Virus record (IMG/VR): IMGVR_UViG_3300025653_000115
Span: 1 to 35,482 of that record
Strand: one strand, 5' to 3'
Source of the DNA: a virus
Taxonomy: Duplodnaviria; Caudoviricetes
Length of the DNA stretch: 35,482 nt
Program-made: the position numbers and the translations under genes
Notes under the pieces: generated by a model
The model's database searches: none
The model's input: only the letters and a program-made list of their open reading frames with translations
Told to the model about the DNA's origin: nothing
Part shown: positions 847-29,540 of the stretch, in pieces
How positions within the stretch are numbered: the stretch's first letter is position 1
Layout: each line of letters starts with the position of its first letter

Positions 847-1146
847 ATGGCAACACGTTACACAGCAGAAGACTTCAACACTATGGAACAACTCCATAAC
901 GAAGGGTTTTCGGATAAAGAAATTGGCCGAGCAATTGGCCGTAGCACAAAGTCGATTGGGGTTCAGTTCACTTACAAGCGTAAGCAGATGAACCTGATTG
1001 ACCGCGTAGAAGCTCGCAGGCTGAGAAAACTGCGCGAGGCTAACACAGTGGCCCGAGTGATCGAGATCACGGCACAGGAACCCCAGGGAGCGCCTGTACG
1101 CCACAGGCCGACCATTTGGGAACGAGTAATCGGGTTTTTCGGATGA
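847..1146 (+). CDS. Hypothetical protein with N-terminal HTH
   Basis: EGFSDKEIGRAIGRSTKSI HTH-like segment; AGGAG RBS. Confidence 0.6.
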   Translation: MATRYTAEDFNTMEQLHNEGFSDKEIGRAIGRSTKSIGVQFTYKRKQMNLIDRVEARRLRKLREANTVARVIEITAQEPQGAPVRHRPTIWERVIGFFG

Positions 1147-1583
1147 AAGACGCAGTCAAGCATACGGTGACTTCTAAGCCGATGGCTGATCAGTGTATGC
1201 GCGACATAGAAGCCATGTGTAAGGAGCATGGCTACTGTGTCGTCAAGATCACGGCAGGAGGCATCTCAGAGGCCCAGAGAGCCTTGTTCCACATCTGGTG
1301 TCGGGAAGCGGCAGTGGAGTTCAACAAGCGCGGGAAGGAAACCGATGAGGGGGTCGTAAAGATCTGGATGAAGCACAGATTCTTGGGGGTAGAGGATGTT
1401 GTCTATGGGAGCAAAGTGCTGACCGGGCAGTTGAGACACACCGAGGATTTATCTGTTGGCGAGACGTTTCATCTGCTTGAACAAATGTGGGAGTATATGG
1501 CTCAAGAGTTCCAAATATTCCTGCCGATCCCGGAAGAAAGTCACTACAAGAAATTGAAGGAAACAGTAAATGGACAAGGTTGA
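1143..1583 (+). CDS. ninB: NinB/YbcN-like recombination protein
   Basis: SEAQRALFHIWCREAA and LRHTEDLSVGE motifs; ATG 1143 overlaps the upstream stop (ATGA). Confidence 0.65.
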   Translation: MKDAVKHTVTSKPMADQCMRDIEAMCKEHGYCVVKITAGGISEAQRALFHIWCREAAVEFNKRGKETDEGVVKIWMKHRFLGVEDVVYGSKVLTGQLRHTEDLSVGETFHLLEQMWEYMAQEFQIFLPIPEESHYKKLKETVNGQG

Positions 1584-2982: not shown

Positions 2983-3147
2983 ATGAGAATGGGAACTTAT
3001 TTCGTTTATCCAAAGGGCCAGAAGTCAAAGGGCTTCAAGATTGATGCAGTTAGCTTTGATGCCGCTAAGTCGATCTTCAATCAGGTTGAAGGCATTACAG
3101 ACACCAACCAGAATCGTTGGAAACTTTGGGCAGACCGGGTCGCGTAA
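2983..3147 (+). CDS. Hypothetical early protein (54 aa, not in ORF track)
   Basis: GGAG RBS; MRMGTYFVYPKGQKSKGFKIDAVSFDAAKSIFNQVEGITDTNQNRWKLWADRVA*. Confidence 0.7.
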   Translation: MRMGTYFVYPKGQKSKGFKIDAVSFDAAKSIFNQVEGITDTNQNRWKLWADRVA

Positions 3148-3154
3148 GCGGCCC
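3137..3154 (+). repeat. Stop-codon hairpin repeat, copy 2
   Basis: GGGTCGC-GTAA-GCGGCCC. Confidence 0.8.
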
Positions 3155-3169
3155 TTTGGGGAGATCAAG

Positions 3170-3415
3170 ATGGAAGTAATGGATCAGTGCGAAATCTTTC
3201 TCTGGCCGATCATCAACGGCATGGAGTATGAGTTGTCATACTCAATCCAGTTGGTCGATTCGTGGAAGGATCGTGACGATGAGCCTGCGGGCGAGGTCTG
3301 GGAAATGATCGACCACACAGCCATTCTGGTGCAGTACACCGGGCCAGTGCAATTGTGGGTTCCTGACAACTATGTTGAAGACTTGTGTGAAAAACACTTT
3401 GCAAAAAAATTCTGA
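3170..3415 (+). CDS. Hypothetical protein
   Basis: GGGGAG RBS before ATG 3170 (MEVMDQCEIF...), same frame as track ORF 3041. Confidence 0.7.
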   Translation: MEVMDQCEIFLWPIINGMEYELSYSIQLVDSWKDRDDEPAGEVWEMIDHTAILVQYTGPVQLWVPDNYVEDLCEKHFAKKF

Positions 3416-3427
3416 CGGGGGTAAGGT
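3399..3427 (+). promoter_or_regulatory. Putative sigma70 promoter driving the structured region
   Basis: TTGCAA-17bp-TAAGGT; predicted +1 near 3434-3436, the start of the first stem. Confidence 0.5.
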
Positions 3428-3435
3428 TTAAAACA

Positions 3436-3815
3436 GTGCCGGGCGGAGATTGGCAGTCTCCTAGCGATAAAACCGGACTGAAACATGAGAAAGACCCGTG
3501 TCGCATTCCGGCACAGGTGTATTGTGACCGCACAGGTTGTTCTGGTCAACACAATACGAATCTCTCCGAATCAGTCCAAACTGCTCTCCCCCGTCAAAAC
3601 AGTCGCATTGTGCTGTAGCACGAAAAAGCAAGAGTGAACATCCGACCTCTGAGGGCGGGACAAACAGCGTAAAAGGCAACCGAGTGTACACATCAAGTGT
3701 GCCAGTGGGGGTGAGGTGTTACGAGCCTCGGCTAATGCCGCCGCAAATCGTTGCTGATGACTGGATGTTCATGGACTAGCGCAAGAAGAAGAGTGAGGGT
3801 TGCCTAATAGCCCTC
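3436..3815 (+). ncRNA. Putative large structured ncRNA / cis element (possibly replication origin)
   Basis: Helices GTGCCGG/CCGGCAC, GTATTGTG/CACAATAC, GGACTGA/TCAGTCC, TGAACATCC/GGATGTTCA, CCGAG/CTCGG, GAGGG/CCCTC; no convincing ORF. Confidence 0.55.
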
Positions 3816-3844: not shown

Positions 3845-5320
3845 ATGCAACTACGACCACATCAACAAACAGCCATCGAGATGCTACGGCACTCACTAGC
3901 AACTGGACACAAGCGACCAATGCTTGCCGCTCCATGTTCGTTCGGTAAAACCATCACAGCCGCCGCGATGCTGAAGAACGCTCTCGATAAAGGGAAGCGT
4001 GGCATCTTTATCTGCGACCGGGTGAAACTGATCTCACAGTCAATCGAAGCATTCGATGCCCATGGTATACCGTTCGGCGTCATGCAGGGTGATCACTTTA
4101 TGAGTAATCCCATGGCCCCGATCCAGATCGCATCTGTCCAGACACTGGCTCGCAGAAAGAACACGCCTGACTTTGACTTTGCCATCGTTGATGAGGCGCA
4201 CACTATGTATAAGTACCTCGAGAAGATTTTTGAGCAGTACAACAACGTGCCGTTCATCGGACTGTCGGCCACTCCATACAGCAAGGGACTCGGAAAGTAT
4301 TACGATGACCTGATCGTGCCGATCACAACACGCGAGCTATTGGAGGAGGAATACCTCTGCCCTGTCGATTACTACGGCGGTCGTCAGGCGTCCCTGAATG
4401 GCGTCAAGACCAAGGCACTCAAGACTGGCGGTACTGACTATGATGAGAGATCACTAGGCGAGGCTATTGAGAAGGAAGAGGGCTTGGTTGGCGATGTGAT
4501 CGCAAACTGGGTGAAGTATGCAGAGGGTCGCCAGACTGTCGCATTCTGCCCATCAATCAAAACATCCAAGGCTCTGGTTGATCAGTTTAATGAGGCAGGC
4601 ATCCGGGCGGAACACATCGATGGCTACATGGACACCGACATCCGGGACGAATTGTTTGAGGCTCACGATGCAGGTGAGTTCATGATCCTGTCATGCTCTC
4701 AGTTGCTGAACACAGGTTGGGACAGCCCGACTACATCGGCGTGTATTGACTTAAAAGCTACAAGGTCAGCGATCCAGTTCCAACAGCGCGTGGGTCGTAT
4801 TATGCGAACAGCACCGGGCAAGAAGAATGCGATCTACCTCGATCACGCAGGCAATGTCAGCCGGTTCGGTTTCTGCGAGGACATGATCCCCGAGTCATTG
4901 GATGACGGTGAGAAGCAGTTCAGCGAGAAGAAGCAACTCAAGGACAAGAAAGAGGTCAAGGTCAAGGACTGCCCACAGTGCTACCGGCAAATGGTTGGGA
5001 TCAGGTGCAGTTGTGGTTACGAGATCCCGATCAAGGAGCGGATCGAGACTGACGGATCGGACTTAGTCCAGTTAGCTAAGTCCGCTAACAAGGTGTACTC
5101 GAAAGAGCGCAAGGCCGAGTTCCTCGGTGAGCTACAGCACTACGCGAAGACTCGCGGATTCAAGGAAGGTTGGGCGTCACACAAGTATCGACAGAAGTTC
5201 GGCGTGTGGCCGAGCGCGATCACTGCCAAGCCGGTTGACGGGATATCTGAAGAAGTGAAAAGATTCATCGTTAGCCAGAACATTAAACGCAACTACGAGG
5301 TGATGAAAAATGCCAGTTGA
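3845..5320 (+). CDS. Superfamily 2 DEAD/DEAH-box DNA helicase with C-terminal zinc finger
   Basis: LRPHQ Q-motif, APCSFGKT Walker A, DEAH, SATP, QRVGRIMR motif VI, CPQC..CSCG. Confidence 0.92.
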   Translation: MQLRPHQQTAIEMLRHSLATGHKRPMLAAPCSFGKTITAAAMLKNALDKGKRGIFICDRVKLISQSIEAFDAHGIPFGVMQGDHFMSNPMAPIQIASVQTLARRKNTPDFDFAIVDEAHTMYKYLEKIFEQYNNVPFIGLSATPYSKGLGKYYDDLIVPITTRELLEEEYLCPVDYYGGRQASLNGVKTKALKTGGTDYDERSLGEAIEKEEGLVGDVIANWVKYAEGRQTVAFCPSIKTSKALVDQFNEAGIRAEHIDGYMDTDIRDELFEAHDAGEFMILSCSQLLNTGWDSPTTSACIDLKATRSAIQFQQRVGRIMRTAPGKKNAIYLDHAGNVSRFGFCEDMIPESLDDGEKQFSEKKQLKDKKEVKVKDCPQCYRQMVGIRCSCGYEIPIKERIETDGSDLVQLAKSANKVYSKERKAEFLGELQHYAKTRGFKEGWASHKYRQKFGVWPSAITAKPVDGISEEVKRFIVSQNIKRNYEVMKNAS

Positions 5321-5702
5321 TAACATCCTCAACAGTGTCAGCAAGGTCCGCAACTCAGGTCAGGACAAGTGGCGGATCCCCTGCCCTGTCCACAACGGCA
5401 AGGGCTTCAATATGTCCATCAAGGAGTGCGCTGACGGCACTGTGTTGGCCCACTGCTTTGTCTGTGGTGCTGACGGTCCAAAACTGGTTGAGGCTCTGGG
5501 CCTGCCGCTGTCAGAAATCTTTCCGCCAGACCGAGAGTATATACGCCCTGTATATACCAAGAAGATGCAACAGGAAGCCCTTGAGGACGAGATCGTTCTC
5601 AGCATAGCCAACGGTGCAGAGAACCTCACACTTGAGGACAAGCGGCGCATACGACTGGCTAAGGCTAGGCTCGAGGGCATCGAACAAAGAAAAAGTGCAT
5701 AA
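5310..5702 (+). CDS. Primase-type zinc-binding domain protein (no TOPRIM domain)
   Basis: CPVH...MSIKECADGTVLAHCFVCG zinc-ribbon; only 130 aa. Confidence 0.7.
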   Translation: MPVDNILNSVSKVRNSGQDKWRIPCPVHNGKGFNMSIKECADGTVLAHCFVCGADGPKLVEALGLPLSEIFPPDREYIRPVYTKKMQQEALEDEIVLSIANGAENLTLEDKRRIRLAKARLEGIEQRKSA

Positions 5703-6509: not shown

Positions 6510-6700
6510 AAGACCGCCCCTACCCAACCTGCCCTAGCTGTGGCTCTCGCGTGATAGCGCACCACTTAGCTCAGGGCCACGAGGTCTGCATGTACTGCGG
6601 GCCGACTCGAGATCTCGACACATACGGGGAGCTTGAGCGTGAAAGATATTTGAACTGGGCTGATCAGTATGAAGATGACCAATTGGATAAGGTGAAGTAA
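6506..6700 (+). CDS. Small zinc-finger protein
   Basis: CPSCG...CMYCG. Confidence 0.65.
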   Translation: MKDRPYPTCPSCGSRVIAHHLAQGHEVCMYCGPTRDLDTYGELERERYLNWADQYEDDQLDKVK

Positions 6701-6891
6701 TGTCGATTCATTTTGCAAAAAACAGGCACTGGGAAAAACACAGGAGCCGTAAGCTCGACCCGGAGGATGTGCTATTGATCAAGGCACTGCGTGAGGAAGG
6801 TCTTACGCTCCAGTCGATTGCTGAGAAGTTTGAGGTGTCAAAGACACACGTTCACAAGATTGTCCACAACATGACTTGGGTAGGGCTATGA
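6700..6891 (+). CDS. Small HTH DNA-binding protein
   Basis: KLDPEDVLLIK...LTLQSIAEKFEVSKTHVHKIVHNMTW. Confidence 0.7.
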   Translation: MSIHFAKNRHWEKHRSRKLDPEDVLLIKALREEGLTLQSIAEKFEVSKTHVHKIVHNMTWVGL

Positions 6892-15141: not shown

Positions 15142-15786
15142 ATGGCAGATACTACGACAACCAATTATTCGTTCACCAAACCAGAGGTTGGAGCCAGTGA
15201 ATCCACATGGGGGACGAAACTCAACCAGAACTGGGATGATCTCGATTCAGACCTGAAGGCCGTTGCAGATCTCGCAGGAATCAACGAGAACACTGCTGAG
15301 GCAAGCATCGATGGCTCAGACCTGATTAACGTATATGACGTATCAGCAGGGGCGGTTAGGAAAGCGACAATTACTAATGCGGCATTAGTTGGCCCGACTG
15401 GCCCTACTGGTGCAACAGGACCGACTGGACCGACTGGACCCACGGGAAGCCCCGGACCAACCGGACCCACTGGGCCGACTGGCCCGACAGGCCCGACAGG
15501 TCCAACTGGGCCAAGTTACGATACCGCGACAACAGGCCTCACCACATCAGCAGGGACAATGTTCACAATGGGTCCAAAAGCAGTGGCTTACCTTTATGGA
15601 ACTGGGCCAGTAAAAGCGAGTGGAACTGGGGTCCATTTTGTTACTGATGGCGCACAAGGAGATTCTCTGAGCCTGACATCGCAATCTGGTGGCGGCACAT
15701 GGGTTCTATTTAATGAATCAGCGAGCAATAGAACAATATCGCTAGTGTCTGGATCAATACGTTGGATGGATATCAACATTGCGTAA
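15142..15786 (+). CDS. Collagen-like tail fibre protein
   Basis: [28 protein letters not shown] anchor, (GPT)n collagen repeat, C-terminal domain paralogous to that of 12234-13730. Confidence 0.8.
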
Positions 15787-16318
15787 CATCTGGCAACTAT
15801 GGGATCGCGGATTCGATCAAGAGTCCTGCGATTTCATTTGTAATGATTTGGTCAGCCAGACGCAACAGGCGACTATTGGAGTAGCGGGTTCGGATGTTAA
15901 TGAGTCCATACGCAGTAGCAGAGTCCAATGGCTTACAGACAATGAGTGGCTCAGGAATCGCCTGTGGGATTACATCCGCATGGCAAACGATAATGCATTT
16001 GATTTTCACCTTCACGATATAGAGAACATTCAGTACACCGAATATCACGCTGATGATGAAGGCCATTACGACTGGCACATCGACACATTCTGGGACGCAG
16101 ATCAGAAGTATGATCGGAAACTGTCATTGACGATTCAATTGTCAGATAATGATGAATACGAAGGCGGTGACTTTGAGTGCGAGATTGAATCACCAAACAA
16201 TCGCAATAAAGGCTCAGTGATCGTCTTTCCTTCCTACATCAGGCATCGCGTCACCCCGGTGACTAGCGGTGTGAGAAAGAGCTTGGTTTGTTGGGTCAAC
16301 GGCCCTAGATGGAGATAG
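15779..16318 (+). CDS. 2OG-Fe(II) oxygenase (prolyl 4-hydroxylase-like)
   Basis: YDWHID (HxD), [32 protein letters not shown]. Confidence 0.9.
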
Positions 16319-22582: not shown

Positions 22583-24840
22583 GCAAGTGGCAACGAAGTC
22601 AGGGTCAGGGCGGCCCAGTAAACGCCGCTAACGCCACTGGAAGCAAATGGGCAAGAAGCCAAGGCATCGCGGGTCCAAGTGAGTCAAAGGCGTTTGACGT
22701 AATCAAAACTCTTGATGATGGATCTCAGGTCATTCAGTTCAATGACGGCTCAATGCAAGTCCTCAACCAAGAGGCAGGACTCGCGTCAAAAGATCCAGAT
22801 GTAGTCAATGCGGCAATGCGTGGCGAAAGCCCGGTCGAAGCATCCAAGCAGAAGCGCGCAGGAGAAATACTTGCACAGCCCGGAGCCTTCCGAGGCGCGA
22901 AGGCGGCGACACTACTTGAAGGACTGCCATTTGTTGGTTCATATGTTGATGAGCTACTAGGCGGTACACCACGAGGCGAGGCTCAAGTCAGGGGCTTGCA
23001 GTCTGCATTGGAAACAACGTCACCGGGTCAGGCACTAGCACTTCAGGCAACTGGCGGTGTGAAGGGTGGGGCGTTACTTGGCCTAGTAGGTGCTGAAGCA
23101 GGCGCGGCAAACGTACTAAACAAGATTGCACAACTCCCACGCGCTCAAAAATATCTGAGTTACCTCGGCCTTGGATCCTTGATAGGCGGAACTGAGGGAG
23201 GCATTTATGGATACGGTCAGGGAGATACTCCACAAGAACGTATACAAAAAGCTCAAGAGGGCGCGATTTTAGGTGGCGGAATTTCTGGCGCTTTGACAAC
23301 TGCGTTACCTGCAATCGGTAATACACTCGCAAAAGGATACGCACAACTGAGAACAACACTGACCCGCAAGGATGTAACGAACATTGCGCGTGAGCTTGGT
23401 GTATCGCCTGATGCGGCAAAGGTCATCCAGTCTGTGGTACAGCAGGGCGATTCAGATCTTGCTGACATGTTGGCGGCGATCGATCGTGCAGGCGAACAGG
23501 GAATGATCGCTGATGCAGATGTTGCGACTCAGGTGCTACTTGATGCGGCGGCGGCTACTGAGGGTGGCGCACTAGCGATTACCCGTGGCGCTGTGGAAGG
23601 CCGAGCGAAAGAGGCAGGCCAAGCCCTTGAAGGCGTGATGGATGAGGCACTTGTCCCAATCCCCCGCATCGGTGGTCAGGCCGCTGATATGCAGGATATT
23701 GCTGAAGGTATTGCGGCTCAGACAAGAGACGCAAGAAGCCAAGCGTACAACACTGCGTACGGCACACCAATTAACTGGCTCAGCGACAAAGGCCAAGCAA
23801 TCACATCAGTTGTAAACAGAATCCCCTCCTCAATGGTTAGTCGGGCAATTCAGGAAGCAAACGATGAGATGAAGATCAATGGCATCCCGGATCAGATCGT
23901 TGCAAAACTCGATGCCAAAGGGAATGTCATTGGTTTCGAGCGAGAGTTAAACGTGGTCCAGTTGGACTACATAAAAAGAGCGCTTGGTGATATCGGGTCT
24001 GAAGTGGATGAACTTGGCCGATCAACAGCGAACGCAGGCCGCGCTCAGACATTGTATGGTCAATTGAGTCGCGCACTCAGTGAGGCTGTCCCGTCTTACA
24101 AAGATGCTGTCAAGCTAGGTGGCGACAAAAAGGCCCGAGACAGGGCGCTTTTGGTAGGCGAGAAACTGCTTGATAAGAATGTGACAGCGAGAGAAGTGGC
24201 GCGTCAAATGTCCAATCTCGATGAAGGGCAGAAGTTGTATGCGCGTGTTGGATTGCGTGATCGAGTGCAGAGAACAATTGATGGTGTGAAGGCAACGATC
24301 ACATCACCAGATGTTGATATCAACGCACTGCGGGAAGTCCTGCGTGACCTGTCATCGAAAGCAAACCAAGCAAAGGTCAAAGCCGTCATTGGACCTGATA
24401 ACGCGGCGAAGCTATTCAGGGAGCTTGAGAAGGCCAACGCGGCACTTTCACTCCGGGCGGCAGTCGCAACAAACTCAAAGACAGCGACACGCCAAGCACT
24501 GCAAAAACAGATCAGCGAAATCACAGAGCCGGGCGCGCTACAGACACTCGCACAGGGCGAGCCACTGGCGGCAACAAGGCAAGTGATTCAGGCTGTTTCT
24601 GGCGCAACTGGTGAATACACTGCGGCGCAGAAAGGCGAGATCATGAAAGAGATCGCTCGCGCCATGACCTCCGCGAGAGGTGAAGAAGCCAAGCGCCAAC
24701 TGACAGTGATTTATAATGCTGTAAAAGAGAACCGGGCGACCAATGAGCAGATGCAACAGGCGGCGGACTTCTTGGTCAACAGTGTTACACTTCCTGCTAC
24801 GGTATTCGGTGTACAAACGCAGACTAGGGACGCTATGTAA
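22579..24840 (+). CDS. Large ejection / internal virion protein
   Basis: ~753-aa Ala/Gly/Gln-rich helical protein; ATGA overlap at 22579. Confidence 0.7.
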   Translation: MSKWQRSQGQGGPVNAANATGSKWARSQGIAGPSESKAFDVIKTLDDGSQVIQFNDGSMQVLNQEAGLASKDPDVVNAAMRGESPVEASKQKRAGEILAQPGAFRGAKAATLLEGLPFVGSYVDELLGGTPRGEAQVRGLQSALETTSPGQALALQATGGVKGGALLGLVGAEAGAANVLNKIAQLPRAQKYLSYLGLGSLIGGTEGGIYGYGQGDTPQERIQKAQEGAILGGGISGALTTALPAIGNTLAKGYAQLRTTLTRKDVTNIARELGVSPDAAKVIQSVVQQGDSDLADMLAAIDRAGEQGMIADADVATQVLLDAAAATEGGALAITRGAVEGRAKEAGQALEGVMDEALVPIPRIGGQAADMQDIAEGIAAQTRDARSQAYNTAYGTPINWLSDKGQAITSVVNRIPSSMVSRAIQEANDEMKINGIPDQIVAKLDAKGNVIGFERELNVVQLDYIKRALGDIGSEVDELGRSTANAGRAQTLYGQLSRALSEAVPSYKDAVKLGGDKKARDRALLVGEKLLDKNVTAREVARQMSNLDEGQKLYARVGLRDRVQRTIDGVKATITSPDVDINALREVLRDLSSKANQAKVKAVIGPDNAAKLFRELEKANAALSLRAAVATNSKTATRQALQKQISEITEPGALQTLAQGEPLAATRQVIQAVSGATGEYTAAQKGEIMKEIARAMTSARGEEAKRQLTVIYNAVKENRATNEQMQQAADFLVNSVTLPATVFGVQTQTRDAM

Positions 24841-27020
24841 TGATTGAACCTGAAATGATCGAAGAAATCGTTGAAGACGTTGAAGACACTATGATGGAAG
24901 TCGATGACGCTGAAAGCACCGGCCCTGAGCCAATGGATGAAGACGACATCCAGAATGTTGCCCGTGACGCTGTAACAGACGCAATCGATTTCATTGAGTC
25001 AGAGATCTCAGAGGACCGTATCCGGGCGCAGAGATACTTTGAGGGTAAAGTCGATCTGGGCCACGAGGAAGGCCGTAGCGCGATTGTAGCGACAAAGGTT
25101 AGGGACACTATTCGGAACATCAAACCATCGCTTATGCGCGTGTTCCTGTCCAATGAGAACTATGTCCAGTTCGTTCCGCGTGGACCCCAGGAAGTGCAGT
25201 CAGCAGAAACTGCGACACGGTACATCCACAACCAGTTCACGGAAAAGAACGGTTACAAGATCATCTCAGACGCATTCCATGACGCACTGCTGAAGAAGGC
25301 CGGTGTGGTCAAGGTGTACTGGGATGAGTACACAGAATCAGAAAACTACAAACTCACGAACCTGACAGAAGCAGAGATGATGCTGATCGTTCAGGACGAG
25401 GATGTGGAAGTATTGGAACAGTCAATGGAAATGGCTGTATCGATTGATGAGTTCGGCACAGAGGTCCAGACTCCTGAGTATTCGTTGCGCGTGGCTCATT
25501 ACAAGAAGGGCGGGAAACTGTGTGTTGACTCAGTGCCGCCGGAAGAGTTCTTTGTGTCACGTTCAGCCCGTTCAATCGATGACGCTTACTGCGTAGGACA
25601 TCGTACCGAGATGCGGGTATCCGATCTTGTGGCGATGGGGTACGAGTACGATGAAGTGTCAAAACTATCTGGCATTCGTGATTACGACACGATGGCAGAG
25701 GCGGAAGATTTCGAGAGGCGTGGCTACGATCAAGTTGAAGAGGACGACATCCTAGACCCTTCAATGCGATTGGTCGCCGTCACAGAGTGCTACATGAAAA
25801 TGGACATCGATGGGACTGGCATTGCCCAGATGCATCGTATCCTGATGGGCGGCGGTGACTACAAGTTACTCGACTACGAGCCAGTTAACGAAGTTCCATT
25901 TGCGGTATTTGAGTGTGACCCAGAGCCACACGCATTCTTTGGCCGCTCGATTGCTGATCTGATTATCGAAGATCAGGACGCATCAACATCTATCCTGCGC
26001 GGTATCCTCGACAACATTGCGATGACCAACAACCCTCGCACAACGATGGTCGAAGGTCAGGTGAACATCGATGACCTACTGAACAACGAGATTGGTGGTG
26101 TGGTCCGCATGAAGCAACCCGGTGCTGTCGGTGAGTTGGCAGTGCCATTCGTGGCAGGCCAGACGTTAAGTGCGTTGCAGTATTACGACTCAGTCATTGA
26201 GCAGAAGACTGGCGTCTCTCGCGCATCAATGGGCCTCGATCCAGACGCGCTACAGAACAGCACAGCAACTGCGGCTAAGTTGACCGTGAATGCGGCGGCA
26301 GGCCAGATCGAGGTGATTGCCCGTAACTTTGCAGAAGGCGGCATGTCCCGGTTGTTCAAGTTGATGCTGAAAGCATTGGCCGAGAACAGCCCAGAAGGTC
26401 AGATGATGCGTATCGCAGGCGATCAGTTTGCACCGATCGATCCACGTTCATGGAGCGTAGACATGGGCATCTCTGTCAATGTCGGACTCGGCACTGGCAA
26501 GGAAGATGAAAAGATCCAAGTCCTGATGCAGACGCTCCAGACTCAGATGAGCATATGGCAGTCATATGGCCCACAAAACGGCTTGGTCGGTATGACGAAC
26601 ATTCGCAACACTTTGGCTGACATTTTAGCTGTCGGTGGCGTGAAGAACGCAGACCGCTACTACATGCCGATGGATCCACAGCGCGAACAGCAACTGGTCA
26701 TGCAGGCACAGCAGGCGGCGCAACAGGGTCAACAAGATCCAAACGCGGCACTGGCGCAAGCACAGATTCAGGCCGAAACAATCCGGGCGCAGGCCAAGGC
26801 ACAGTCAGATATGGCGAAGATCCAGTTGGACGCGCAGAAGGCACTGGCTGAAGACGACCGCGTTCGAGACAAGATGGACCAAGACCTACTGGTCAAGGCG
26901 GCAGAAGTGATTGGCAAGTACGGCACAGCGGTAGACGTTGAGCGCATCAAGGCCATGCAGGCTGAACCACGTTACGCAGATGTGACGCCAACTGAGGCTG
27001 TCCCACAAGCGAGGTACTAA
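24840..27020 (+). CDS. Portal protein (P22-like)
   Basis: YFEG...EEGRS.IV...VRDT...PSLMRVF, VPPEEF, PEPHAFFGRSIAD, Gln-rich barrel; upstream of scaffold and capsid. Confidence 0.9.
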   Translation: MIEPEMIEEIVEDVEDTMMEVDDAESTGPEPMDEDDIQNVARDAVTDAIDFIESEISEDRIRAQRYFEGKVDLGHEEGRSAIVATKVRDTIRNIKPSLMRVFLSNENYVQFVPRGPQEVQSAETATRYIHNQFTEKNGYKIISDAFHDALLKKAGVVKVYWDEYTESENYKLTNLTEAEMMLIVQDEDVEVLEQSMEMAVSIDEFGTEVQTPEYSLRVAHYKKGGKLCVDSVPPEEFFVSRSARSIDDAYCVGHRTEMRVSDLVAMGYEYDEVSKLSGIRDYDTMAEAEDFERRGYDQVEEDDILDPSMRLVAVTECYMKMDIDGTGIAQMHRILMGGGDYKLLDYEPVNEVPFAVFECDPEPHAFFGRSIADLIIEDQDASTSILRGILDNIAMTNNPRTTMVEGQVNIDDLLNNEIGGVVRMKQPGAVGELAVPFVAGQTLSALQYYDSVIEQKTGVSRASMGLDPDALQNSTATAAKLTVNAAAGQIEVIARNFAEGGMSRLFKLMLKALAENSPEGQMMRIAGDQFAPIDPRSWSVDMGISVNVGLGTGKEDEKIQVLMQTLQTQMSIWQSYGPQNGLVGMTNIRNTLADILAVGGVKNADRYYMPMDPQREQQLVMQAQQAAQQGQQDPNAALAQAQIQAETIRAQAKAQSDMAKIQLDAQKALAEDDRVRDKMDQDLLVKAAEVIGKYGTAVDVERIKAMQAEPRYADVTPTEAVPQARY

Positions 27021-27247
27021 TGAATGCAAAAGAGCGAGCGCATCAACTGAGAAGAATCGTCAATGACGATATCTTCAAAGAAATGATGAAGGAAGTAATT
27101 GAAAGGCAGACTGCTGTATTTTTAAACAGTTCTGCTACCATGCAAGAAATCGAGCGCGCCCATCATGTAATCAAGGGTGTGCATGCGGTTGAGGCGCACA
27201 TTGAGTCTGTGTTTAACGCAGAAGCAATTTACGACAAAAAGCAGTAA
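27020..27247 (+). CDS. Small head-associated protein
   Basis: 75-aa helical ORF between portal and scaffold. Confidence 0.65.
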   Translation: MNAKERAHQLRRIVNDDIFKEMMKEVIERQTAVFLNSSATMQEIERAHHVIKGVHAVEAHIESVFNAEAIYDKKQ

Positions 27248-27268
27248 AATATACTGGAGATCAGCACC

Positions 27269-28291
27269 GTGGAAACGACTGATAGTAACACTGGGCCATT
27301 GAGCCTAGACCAAGCGGCTGAGTTAATTGCACAGCCGGAAGAAACAACTGAAGCAGAAGTCACCGAAGAGGTGGAGCAGGAGCAACCAGAAGAGGACTCC
27401 TACGAAGAAGCCGATGACGAGATCGATGCAGAAGTTGAAGACGTTGATCCTGATGAAGTCAATGAAGTCGATGACGAAGAGACTGAAGAGGATGACGAGA
27501 ACGAATACGAAGACGCAGAAGAAGACGATGAGTCTGAAGACCCTGTAGGTGAACTCTATACCGTAAAGGTAGACGGAGAAGATAAGCAGGTAACTCTGGA
27601 AGAACTCAAGCGTGGTTATTCTGGTCAGCAGTACGTTCAGAAAGGGATGCAACAGGCCGCCGAGGTTAAGAAAGAAGCCGAGAACGTCTATTACGCCCTG
27701 ATGCAGGAACGCCAAAATCTGGCGAATTTGGTACAACAGGTGCAGTCAGGCCAAAACCTGACACCGCCAACAGAGCCCGACAGTGCGATGTTTGATGCGG
27801 ATCCGATTGGGTACATGGAAGCTAAGATCCAGTACGACAATCAGATGAAGCAATATCAGCAGAACATGAGTCAAGTTCAGGCGGTCATGCAACAGCAGTC
27901 CGAGGCAGAGCAAGTTGCTCGCGCTGAGTATGCTAGGCAAGAGGCACAACGATTGGTTCAGGTCATCCCTGAATTGGCTGACGCCGGTAAGGCAGGCAAG
28001 TTCAAGGAAAATCTGGTACGCACTGCAACCGATGTATATGGATATACGCCGGAAGAAATCGCAGGCATCAGTTCACACAGAGACTTCTTGGTCCTGCGTG
28101 ACGCGATGAAGTACCGAGAGATGATGTCCGGGAAAAAGGATGTGCAGAGCAAGGTCCAAAAAGCCAAGCCTGCAATGAAGCCGGGAGCCAAGCGAGTTAA
28201 CACCAAGTCAGATGCGGTGCGAAAGCAGAAAGACAGACTGAAGAAGTCAGGTAGCATCGAAGATGCACTGGCACTGATCATGCAAAACTAA
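27269..28291 (+). CDS. Capsid scaffolding protein
   Basis: Very acidic N-half, YTVKVDGE..QVTLEELKRGY, C-terminal LKKSGSIEDA. Confidence 0.85.
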   Translation: METTDSNTGPLSLDQAAELIAQPEETTEAEVTEEVEQEQPEEDSYEEADDEIDAEVEDVDPDEVNEVDDEETEEDDENEYEDAEEDDESEDPVGELYTVKVDGEDKQVTLEELKRGYSGQQYVQKGMQQAAEVKKEAENVYYALMQERQNLANLVQQVQSGQNLTPPTEPDSAMFDADPIGYMEAKIQYDNQMKQYQQNMSQVQAVMQQQSEAEQVARAEYARQEAQRLVQVIPELADAGKAGKFKENLVRTATDVYGYTPEEIAGISSHRDFLVLRDAMKYREMMSGKKDVQSKVQKAKPAMKPGAKRVNTKSDAVRKQKDRLKKSGSIEDALALIMQN

Positions 28292-28307
28292 CTTGAGGTA
28301 ATTCAAA

Positions 28308-29540
28308 ATGGCACAGCCAACCAACACTTTTGACAGCTATGATGCTGTAGGTATCCGCGAAGATTTGAGCGATGTAATCACGAATATCTCGCCTTAACTT
28401 GGGGCCGCTCTGGAGTAATTCAGAAGCGATAATCGCGTGAATTTCTGGGACGCTAAGTCGGAAACGATAAGCCAATCAGAAGCCAAGCTCCACAGGAATG
28501 TGGTGAAGGTTCAGAGACTAGGGTATGGAGTCCAGACCGGACGGTAAAACCCCACGAGTGCGCGACATCCTACGGGATGAAGATATAGTCCGATACTCCT
28601 TGGAAACGAGGAGAGCCGAGGATAAAGAGCCTTGGTGTAACATTTGGAAGAAACACCGTTCTACTCTGCGTGTAAAAAGACTAAAGCGACTAACACTTTC
28701 CACGAGTGGCAGACAGACTCGCTACGCGCATCTGCTGACAACGCTCACATTGAAGGTTTTGATACTGATGCAGAAGCTCGCACAGCGACTACTCGCCTCG
28801 GAAATTACAGCCAGATCATGAAGAATGCAGTTTCCGTGCCAGATACGGATGAAGGGCTCTCAAAGGCAGGTCGCGCAAAAGAAATCGGCTATCAGGTACT
28901 GAAAGTCGCAAAAGAGCAAAAGCTCGATATTGAGAAAGCACTCTTTAGTAACCAAGCCTATGTTCAGGGCAACGGCACTGACACTGCCCGCCGTCTTGCA
29001 GGCGTTCCTGCGTGGTTGACCACTAACACAAACTTCCACACTGGTGGCGACACTGATGGTGCTGATCCTGTTACTATCGGATCAACTGCGCGTACAGACG
29101 CTGTTGGCTCTATAGGTACTCCTCTTACTGCATTCGATCAAACCAAGTTTGATTTGGTGATGCAATCCGTCTGGGAGCAAGGGGGGGTACCGCAAACTGT
29201 CTACTTGTCAGCGTTCCAAATGAACAAGGCATTGGGCTTCACTGGTAACAACAATCAGCGTTCAACTATTGGCGCGTCTGATGGTGAAGTAGCGAACCTG
29301 TTGAACATTTACATGACTCCTTGGGGTTCAGTAGAGTTCATCCCTACTCGCGAAAACCGTTCACGCGATGTGTTCATCATGCAAAACGACATGTGGGAAG
29401 TTGCGGTATTGCGCCCAACTAAGAACACTGCGTTGGCCAAGACTGGTGACTCAACACGCCGCCAAGTAATCACTGAACTCACTCTGGTATGCCGGAATGA
29501 GGCTAGTAGCGGTGCAGTGTACGATTCAACAACGTCTTAA
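28308..29540 (+). CDS. Major capsid protein (DUF5309/SU10-like), two exons 28308-28394 and 28647-29540, 326 aa spliced
   Basis: GAGG RBS then MAQPTNTFDSYDAVGIREDLSDVITNISP joined in frame to EETPFY...HEWQTDSL, restoring the family N-terminal motif (GxREDL.D.I.NISP.ETPF). Confidence 0.92.
28395..28646 (+). mobile_element. Group I self-splicing intron (IA-like, 252 nt, no homing endonuclease)
   Basis: Exon ends in U with U.G in P1 (GCCU/GGGC); terminal G; P AAUUUCUGGGA 28440, Q AAUCAGAAGCC 28474, R GUUCAGAGACUA 28509, S AAGAUAUAGUCC 28580; P3 UCGCGU/GCGCGA; P8 CAUCC/GGAUG; P9 with GAAA loop. Confidence 0.93.

What the first reader, a model, noticed from the sequence alone, without database searches (positions are those of the whole stretch)
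28308..28646. Major capsid gene interrupted by a minimal, endonuclease-free group I intron
Seen: the capsid frame starts at ATG 28308, hits TAA at 28395 after 29 codons and resumes in frame at 28647; joining gives ...DVITNISP|EETPFY..., the intact family motif. The 252-nt insert has the full group I core (P1 U.G splice pair, P2, P3, P4, P7 GACUA/UAGUC, P7.1 extension, P8, P9, terminal G). Known: classic phage group I introns sit mainly in DNA-metabolism genes and often carry homing endonucleases. Inference: synthesis of the most abundant virion protein depends on ribozyme splicing, so the intron could gate capsid production on GTP/Mg2+/temperature. No homing endonuclease is evident in the genome, so it is stranded, mobilised in trans, or domesticated. 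The ORF track mis-starts this protein at TTG 28644.
Basis: partly seen in the sequence, partly recalled or inferred. Interest (0 to 1): 0.85.

Follow-up and report, generated by a model that had tools for sequence, protein, structure and literature searches.

The report
Mobile gene-less intron in phage capsid
A 252-base group I intron with no gene of its own splits this freshwater phage's major capsid gene, and one environmental RNA contig lacks exactly that stretch, which likely reflects self-splicing; such capsid introns are known, but a 96%-identical copy in a very distant capsid gene shows this one likely moved between phages recently, probably with a borrowed DNA-cutting enzyme.

Summary
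Observation confirmed. 28395-28646 is a complete, ORF-less group I intron (RF00028, 84 bits; helices covary) in an SU10-type capsid gene; 78 of 79 informative homologues are continuous across ISP|EETPF. One freshwater metatranscriptome contig (223 nt, no mismatch, depth 2.3) has the exact joined form; none of 6 DNA runs laid does. No homing endonuclease or reverse transcriptase was found in the genome. The gating idea is unsupported: the intron is patchy on the capsid tree, and relatives occupy about 22 sites in this gene family, up to four per gene. It is not stranded either: a 96%-identical copy sits at the same site in a capsid only 39% identical, and a distant relative has an HNH-bearing intron there. 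Most likely a selfish passenger moved at DNA level with a borrowed endonuclease; reverse splicing is the main rival. Capsid introns (LittleE, Tuc2009, crAss-like) and ORF-less structural-gene introns (BAKA, B. cereus tape measure) are in print, and this scan reported capsid introns before on other DNA. New member of a known kind; the value lies in the splice evidence and the recent jump.

The parts
28295..28299 (+). Shine-Dalgarno-like GAGGT, 8 nt before the true start codon
   Evidence: sequence
28308..28394 (+). Exon 1 of the major capsid gene, 29 codons (MAQP...NISP); last 4 nt form the exon side of P1
   Evidence: same residues in intronless L001; 5' part of the joined RNA contig
28395..28646 (+). 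Group I intron, 252 nt, no ORF; starts with an in-frame TAA, ends in omega-G 28646
   Evidence: RF00028 84.4 bits; skip of 252 in RNA run X20
28391..28405 (+). P1: exon GCCU pairs with guide GGGC, U28394.G28402 wobble; CUU 28398-28400 can form a 3-bp P10 with exon-2 AAG
28406..28428 (+). P2 with GUAA tetraloop
   Evidence: 9 of 9 pairs covary
28433..28565 (+). P3 (28433-28439 with 28559-28565) enclosing P4-P5-P6-P6a (28443-28510)
   Evidence: the window has a compensatory U-A where most relatives have G-C in P4
28514..28591 (+). P7 guanosine-binding helix (GACUA 28516-28520 with UAGUC 28586-28590, bulged A28515)
   Evidence: invariant in 18 of 18
28521..28552 (+). P7.1/P7.1a arm (two stacked helices with an internal loop), class IA-type extension
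28566..28579 (+). P8 with UACG loop; the place where relative L274 carries an antisense HNH ORF
28596..28636 (+). P9 (GAAA loop) and P9.1 (conserved AUAAAGAG loop)
28647..29540 (+). Exon 2 of the major capsid gene (297 codons plus stop); SU10_MCP PF17236, phrog_1328
24840..28291 (+). Context: portal (PF23899) and scaffold (phrog_3927) genes directly upstream; no endonuclease gene beside the capsid gene

Best explanation
[quoted passage not shown] Shown: full ribozyme fold, exact boundaries, one RNA contig with the precise exon-exon join, no endonuclease in this genome, a near-identical copy at the same site of a distant capsid gene, and an HNH-bearing intron at that site in another distant relative. 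From established knowledge (group I chemistry): ribosomes stop at the TAA just inside the intron, the core folds, free guanosine bound in P7 attacks the U.G site in P1, omega-G replaces it and the exons join to give the 326-residue capsid protein. Inferred: in mixed infections an endonuclease supplied by another phage cuts the uninterrupted ISP-EETPF site and recombination (this genome encodes Sak, NinB and NinG) copies the intron with a few exon bases; carriers would also be immune to that cut, which would explain why gene-less copies last. New sites in the gene are likely seeded rarely at places that already pair with the guide (exon ending GCNU), and neighbouring introns likely swap cores by gene conversion.
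For: Fold and boundaries. Joined RNA: X20 contig = 28308-28394 + 28647-28782, no mismatch; 0 of 6 DNA runs laid show it, and 4 (X16, X1, X3, X9) bridge both junctions with the intron in place. Lateral move: L289 intron 96% identical, capsid exon 2 39% aa / 56% nt; L264 and L288 introns 100% identical with exon 2 78% nt; 7 changes for 8 carriers on the capsid tree, 6 forced by starred branches. DNA-level hint: codons ACA CCG just after the junction occur in the window, L289, L288, L264 and L272 but in 0 of 42 distinct uninterrupted contexts, as exon co-conversion would give; PMC2504315 (passage) says reverse splicing gives none. Possible endonuclease source: L274, 779-nt intron at the same site with an antisense HNH_2 ORF. 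Intronless relatives share the same water (X16 joint with other letters). Recombination genes. Core exchange: the two L155 introns differ at 2 of 130 core bases but have site-typical ends.
Against: The RNA evidence is one contig at depth 2.3 in one run; DNA can be in RNA libraries and contigs drop rare variants, so an intronless allele with identical exons is not excluded; three of the DNA runs may be the source of the window. Self-splicing was not tested. The HNH gene was found only once (no other relative in IMG/VR), its intron is 67% identical to this one and its capsid 36%, and its target is not shown. Only 1 of 13 true same-site junction hits carried an endonuclease; no HNH_2 in 5 partial carrier genomes. 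ACACC in exon 2 is also complementary to the intron's GGUGU in P9.1, so the shared codons may reflect RNA pairing and not co-conversion. Exon homology between the window and L289 is very short (6 nt upstream, about 15 downstream), which is poor for homing.
Confidence: 0.6

Rival explanations
1. RNA-level spread: the excised intron reverse-splices into the very abundant capsid mRNA wherever 4-6 bases match its guide, and the product reaches DNA through a host reverse transcriptase or RNA-templated repair. This would explain the capsid bias and the lack of ORFs without any endonuclease.
For: About 22 well-supported sites in one gene family; 9 of 22 end GCNT against 5.5% background (p about 1e-6) and 22 of 22 have a purine at -4; L093's site-29 intron nests among site-7 introns and monophyly of site 29 is rejected (AU p 0.002); among distinct introns with a clear call, 35 of 43 in capsid genes lack an endonuclease against 2 of 22 in non-virion genes (Fisher p 2e-8; p 0.006 if all unclear cases go against it).
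Against: No reverse transcriptase in the genome. Shared exon-2 codons hint at co-conversion. Most introns have their nearest relative at the same site, and without L093 site-29 monophyly is not rejected (p 0.32). The GCNT bias may only reflect what a 4-bp P1 needs, and sites are not independent. PMC3984707 (passage): no direct experimental evidence for this pathway.
Confidence: 0.2
2. Stranded relic: an old homing intron that lost its endonuclease and has since been inherited vertically, with repeated precise losses in relatives.
For: Standard intron life cycle (PMC2504315 passages); related cores exist with and without an ORF (OmnioDeoPrimus against Nigalana polymerase introns).
Against: 96% intron identity across 39% capsid identity, while same-site introns in 72-75% identical capsids are only 79-85% alike; scattered carriers.
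Confidence: 0.1
3. Domesticated switch: splicing gates capsid output on GTP, Mg2+ or temperature.
For: Capsid synthesis does depend on splicing; helices are under selection; a domesticated, ligand-controlled group I intron exists in C. difficile (PMC3984707 passage).
Against: Any intron in an essential gene is under the same selection. No aptamer or other Rfam element. 78 of 79 homologues, including the closest (L001, 80% aa in exon 2), lack it. Positions and numbers per gene vary freely. The in-frame stop near the 5' end is present in all 53 introns and is a known general feature.
Confidence: 0.07
4. Not spliced or artefact: the capsid starts at TTG 28644, or the insert is an assembly chimera.
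For: An open frame does start at TTG 28644.
Against: All informative homologues carry the N-terminal 29 residues; contigs of several DNA runs bridge the insert; the joined form is seen in RNA.
Confidence: 0.02

Closest known systems
Capsid-gene intron of mycobacteriophage LittleE, and the 265-bp ORF-less tail-gene intron of BAKA/Optimus (Pope et al. 2013, PMC3706429; passages read)
   Same: Group I-type intron splitting a virion gene, U before the 5' site and G at the 3' end, spliced during late expression; related introns with and without an endonuclease; LittleE's ORF is on the opposite strand, as in L274.
   Different: Actinobacterial siphoviruses with an HK97-type capsid; the capsid intron there is 819 bp with its own endonuclease. 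Sequence kinship to this intron was not found.
Bacillus cereus-group prophage introns in tape-measure, terminase and tail-tube genes (Tourasse and Kolsto 2008, PMC2504315; passages read)
   Same: Mostly ORF-less IA introns in structural genes; related introns at different sites with a conserved core and adapted P1; the paper notes the puzzle of an immobile intron in distinct phages. Sixteen tape-measure loci share this intron's exact P7/P7.1 motif.
   Different: Three sites in a tail gene of Firmicutes prophages; here about 22 sites in one capsid family of aquatic podoviruses. Which published IVS the tape-measure loci are was not established.
Wphvirus (Bastillevirinae) DNA-polymerase introns, e.g. 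phages OmnioDeoPrimus, Hakuna, Nigalana (survey PMC11878797, passages and section 16 read)
   Same: Closest ribozyme among cultured phages: 79% over 197 nt; compact and HNH-bearing versions both exist.
   Different: Host gene is DNA polymerase; that these exact introns are in the survey is my inference (its supplements were not opened).
Lactococcus phage Tuc2009 major head gene intron; crAss-like phage MCP introns; Twort gene with three similar introns (seen only as cited in PMC3706429, PMC2504315, PMC7886860, PMC3073962)
   Same: Group I introns in capsid or other phage genes, sometimes several per gene.
   Different: crAss-like cases were found through intron-encoded endonuclease domains; no blastn match to Tuc2009 or Twort at E 1e-3.
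Collaborative or trans homing (ORF-less intron plus separate endonuclease; PMC3984707 passage; T4 mobE, PMC2790892, listing and start of abstract only)
   Same: An element without its own nuclease spreads through a cut made by another gene.
   Different: As recalled, in those systems the nuclease gene lies close by in the same genome; here none is in the genome, so it would have to come from a co-infecting phage.

Membership tests
Group I intron (RF00028) | Covariance-model match over the core | tested here: met
   84.4 bits, model 1-253, E 2.7e-20
Group I intron (RF00028) | P1 with U.G at the 5' splice site, internal guide, terminal G | tested here: met
   U28394.G28402, 4-bp P1, 3-bp P10, G28646
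Group I intron (RF00028) | P3-P7 pseudoknot with guanosine-binding pair; P4-P6 domain; P8, P9 | tested here: met
   P7 invariant in 18 of 18; P3, P6a, P8, P9, P9.1 covary
Group I intron (RF00028) | Precise removal restores the host gene; removal seen in RNA | tested here: met
   Homologues continuous; one RNA contig with the exact join, none in 6 DNA runs; a single low-depth contig
Group I intron (RF00028) | Protein-free, guanosine-dependent splicing | not testable with these tools
   needs an in vitro assay
Class IA | Extra paired element between P7 and P3 (definition partly recalled; PMC3984707 section 5 names P7.1/P7.2 as class features) | tested here: met
   P7.1/P7.1a arm, 5 of 8 pairs with changes on both sides
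Subclass IA1 or IA2 | IA2: two separate hairpins P7.1 and P7.2; IA1: one arm P7.1/P7.1a plus a P11 pairing to L6a (both recalled) | tested here: inconclusive
   One arm, not two hairpins; no consistent L6a complementarity by eye in alignment A1; subgroup models not available
Mobile (homing) group I intron | Own endonuclease ORF | tested here: not met
   252 nt, no ORF; no endonuclease family in the genome
Collaborative homing pair | Free-standing endonuclease gene in the same genome that cuts the intronless site | tested here: not met
   None found in this genome (CheckV estimate 100% complete, linear record); an unrecognised nuclease family is not excluded
Trans homing by another phage's endonuclease | An endonuclease that cuts the uninterrupted site-29 sequence | tested here: inconclusive
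   Candidate HNH in a same-site intron (L274); cleavage untested
Riboswitch-controlled intron | Aptamer next to the 5' splice site | tested here: not met
   No other Rfam match at E<=1; the flank is coding exon
SU10-type major capsid protein | PF17236 / phrog_1328 match, downstream of portal and scaffold | tested here: met
   E 5.6e-73 and 8.5e-66; intronless L001 matches PDB 9ny2 and 7z45 from residue 1

The most novel reading that the evidence does not exclude
Major capsid genes are a main reservoir of a lineage of minimal, gene-less group I introns that is still spreading: it jumps between very distant phages at the same site and colonises new sites by guide-sequence match, without any endonuclease of its own. 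That would make the SU10 capsid family the natural system in which to settle how ORF-less group I introns move (reverse splicing into the most abundant viral mRNA, or immunity-driven hitch-hiking on other phages' nucleases).
Probability: 0.3. Interest if true: 0.75.

Novelty: new member of a known kind. Interest (0 to 1): 0.45.

Why it matters
Practically, gene callers truncate or split these capsid genes (here the start is put at TTG 28644), which affects viral marker-gene surveys. Biologically, how group I introns without an endonuclease reach new genomes and sites is still open (PMC3984707 and PMC2504315 passages). This locus gives a very recent cross-lineage transfer (96% intron against 39% protein identity), a candidate same-site nuclease and about 22 sites in one gene family, so homing in trans and reverse splicing make different, checkable predictions. 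It also shows that the textbook bias to DNA-metabolism genes does not hold for this intron lineage. It does not show regulation of capsid output.

Tried and rejected
Regulatory gating, stranded relic and TTG start were considered and scored low (see rivals). Metagenome scan for the site-29 3' junction: 3 of 3 hits were chance matches. Viral scan for the same junction: 15 of 28 hits were chance. Search for relatives of the L274 HNH found only itself. X20 has no cover over the intron, which proves nothing at this depth. X17 covers the stretch only in part. Attempts to tie the intron to a published subclass through plasmid records failed. Three site calls with poor P1 or close-scoring alternatives (69, and two at 111) were dropped, leaving 22 of 25. 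ARAGORN found no tRNA in L296/L297, as expected for an interrupted gene. PMC10580990 and PMC12350094 (passages) added nothing on capsid introns. Literature searches; none showed a survey of ORF-less introns in SU10-type capsid genes (one search returned 0 papers), but the library lacks most subscription journals and no supplements were opened.

Full report
1. What is there. The window is a whole IMG/VR record of 35,482 bases, linear, estimated 100% complete, found mostly in freshwater metagenome runs. It is a podovirus-like phage with SU10-type portal, scaffold, capsid and adaptor genes and a Sak/NinB/NinG recombination set (57 ORFs scanned). The closest cultured capsid is that of Octadecabacter Antarctic DB virus 2 (66%), so an alphaproteobacterial host is a guess only. 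The capsid frame starts at ATG 28308 behind GAGGT, stops at TAA 28395 after 29 codons and resumes at 28647. The 252-nt insert matches RF00028 end to end (84.4 bits, E 2.7e-20) and is the only Rfam hit in the window. I drew P1-P9.1 on the window sequence and counted pairs on 18 related introns: 97% of cells pair, 44 of 74 pairs change on both sides, P7 never varies, slid controls give 31-40%.

2. The boundaries are right. Of 80 homologous loci, 79 cover the junction; 78 run straight through it and one has a related intron at the same place. Rfam on 20 of these 80 loci found three introns, one at this site and two at another. Scoring all U|...G| splice pairs against a capsid profile picks 28394|28647.

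3. Evidence of splicing. Two of 6 listed RNA runs and 6 of 18 listed DNA runs were laid. Freshwater metatranscriptome X20 has a 223-nt contig made of 28308-28394 joined to 28647-28782 with no mismatch, at depth 2.3. No DNA run shows this join; X16, X1, X3 and X9 bridge both junctions with the intron in place, X15 bridges the 5' one, X17 is partial. X16 also holds an intronless relative with different letters. Limits: one contig; DNA may be in RNA libraries; contigs drop rare alleles; X1, X3 and X9 may be the window's own source.

4. No mobility gene in cis. No endonuclease family among the 57 ORFs apart from NinG and a 63-aa helix-turn-helix protein that matches only the DNA-binding end of endonuclease profiles. 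Six-frame searches for HNH_3, HNH, GIY-YIG, LAGLIDADG_3, HNH_2 and RVT_1 gave 0 matches.

5. The lineage. A 21-base P7/P7.1 motif found 57 stretches (58 cores) in IMG/VR: 36 in SU10-type capsid genes, 4 in other capsid genes, 16 in tape-measure genes, 1 in DNA polymerase, 1 unknown (many are near-duplicates). A looser pattern is estimated to hit about 660 stretches; 122 loci (129 matches) were sampled. By my hand labelling, 58 of 129 lie in capsid genes, 9 in tail or other virion genes, 33 in non-virion genes and 29 in unknown hosts. Among 117 distinct cores, those with a clear call split as capsid 35 ORF-less and 8 with an endonuclease, non-virion 2 and 20 (p 2e-8; 0.006 in the worst case). 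Some endonuclease labels rest on motifs seen by eye, the pattern came from this intron, and it excludes ORFs in P8 and P9, so these figures describe this lineage and not all phage introns. In SU10-type genes 53 distinct introns of 236-274 nt map to 25 site calls, 22 well supported (that step looked only for compact introns, but all 28 SU10 matches of the broad sample resolved as compact). One gene holds four (L144). All 53 have an in-frame stop within 14 codons of the 5' end, a known feature.

6. It moves. A junction search for this site gave 28 hits, 13 real: 12 compact and one of 779 nt. L289 carries an intron 96% identical to the window's in a capsid 39% identical; same-site introns in 72-75% identical capsids are only 79-85% alike; L264 and L288 share an identical intron with exon 2 at 78% nt. 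On the capsid tree 8 carriers need 7 changes, as many as shuffled labels (L264 and L272 were left out). Site-29 introns are not one clade when L093 is included (AU p 0.002) but may be without it (p 0.32). The two introns of L155 differ at 2 of 130 core bases yet have ends typical of their own sites, which points to conversion between neighbours. The 779-nt intron (L274) has an antisense HNH_2 ORF in P8; its core is 67% identical, and no second copy of the protein was found. All 10 carriers end exon 1 in GCCT, against 1 of 42 distinct uninterrupted contexts; this is required by P1 and so does not separate the models. The five carriers of this intron's sub-lineage share ACA CCG after the junction, seen in 0 of 42 uninterrupted contexts. 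That fits co-conversion, but ACACC can also pair with the intron's GGUGU.

7. How it most likely works. Splicing follows ordinary group I chemistry (established; PMC3984707 section 5 and passages) and must be efficient, as argued for LittleE. For spread I favour DNA-level transfer in mixed infections with a nuclease from another phage, carriers being immune to the cut (0.6 for the whole account; about 0.95 for 'a spliced group I intron' alone). Reverse splicing into the abundant capsid mRNA (0.2) best explains the many sites and the GCNT bias (9 of 22 against 5.5%) but lacks a reverse transcriptase and has no direct support in print. A stranded relic (0.1) conflicts with L289. Gating (0.07) has no positive evidence.

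8. Against what is known. It is a member of the group I introns, class IA by its P7.1 arm; subclass is unsettled. It is not a homing intron in its own right and has no partner nuclease in its genome. Capsid introns are in print for LittleE and Tuc2009 and crAss-like phages; ORF-less ones in structural genes for BAKA and B. cereus prophages. The closest cultured ribozymes are Wphvirus polymerase introns (79% over 197 nt). I read passages or single sections of these papers, not whole texts or supplements; the Bastillevirinae supplements may give the subgroup of the closest relatives. Eight paper searches showed no survey of this capsid family. This scan's earlier notes already report ORF-less capsid introns, a capsid bias and multi-intron capsid genes on other DNA; I had reached that reading before looking, and they are not independent support.

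9. Verdict. Real, correctly described, likely spliced in nature; a new member of a known kind. What lifts it above routine is the junction in RNA, the recent jump across distant phages without its own nuclease, and a same-site HNH candidate, which together make the mobility question testable. Interest 0.45.

Noticed in passing
L296:~1080-1355 (read on - strand) and L297:~1080-1350 (+): The same intron lineage interrupts the D-loop of what reads as a tRNA-Pro gene in two Syntrophomonadaceae genomes. As recalled, bacterial tRNA group I introns usually sit in the anticodon loop; one paper search showed nothing on this.
   Followed up: partly
L295: Clostridium sp. BSD9I1: related intron with a LAGLIDADG-like ORF in what looks like dnaE (by eye).
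   Followed up: no
L274:3011-3790 (-), ORF 3108-3608 (+): Same-site capsid intron with an antisense HNH gene in P8; a second 373-aa gene just downstream of that capsid gene looks by eye like a doubled HNH-type nuclease but had no Pfam hit.
   Followed up: partly
L144, L089, L093, L087: Capsid genes with three or four related ORF-less introns each.
   Followed up: partly
L084-type loci (site 7): Introns after only 7 codons of the capsid gene; most lack P2.
   Followed up: partly
L179, L248; L256, L259; L168, L185, L250, L252; L147, L191; L213: Group I introns of the wider lineage in unusual viral host genes: Hsp70/DnaK, QueD-like, dUTPase, uracil-DNA glycosylase, Sak4-like.
   Followed up: no
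L090, L246: Compact intron of this lineage in a long gene with no PHROGs or Pfam match.
   Followed up: no
window 28633-28657: Intron GGUGU (P9.1 3' strand) is complementary to exon-2 ACACC; an alternative hairpin could cover the 3' splice site. Kept in the window's sub-lineage only.
   Followed up: partly
window 5310-5702: 130-aa ORF matching only the N-terminal part of primase profiles; no catalytic primase or DNA polymerase was recognised in the genome.
   Followed up: no
window 6700-6891: 63-aa helix-turn-helix protein resembling the DNA-binding end of endonuclease profiles, with no nuclease domain in the ORF before it.
   Followed up: partly
window 15779-16318: 2OG-Fe(II) oxygenase inside the tail-gene block, next to a collagen-repeat fibre gene; possibly modifies the fibre.
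   Followed up: no
window 7410-35030: Gene order is unusual: terminase and tail genes come before portal, scaffold and capsid, and nearly all genes are on one strand.
   Followed up: no
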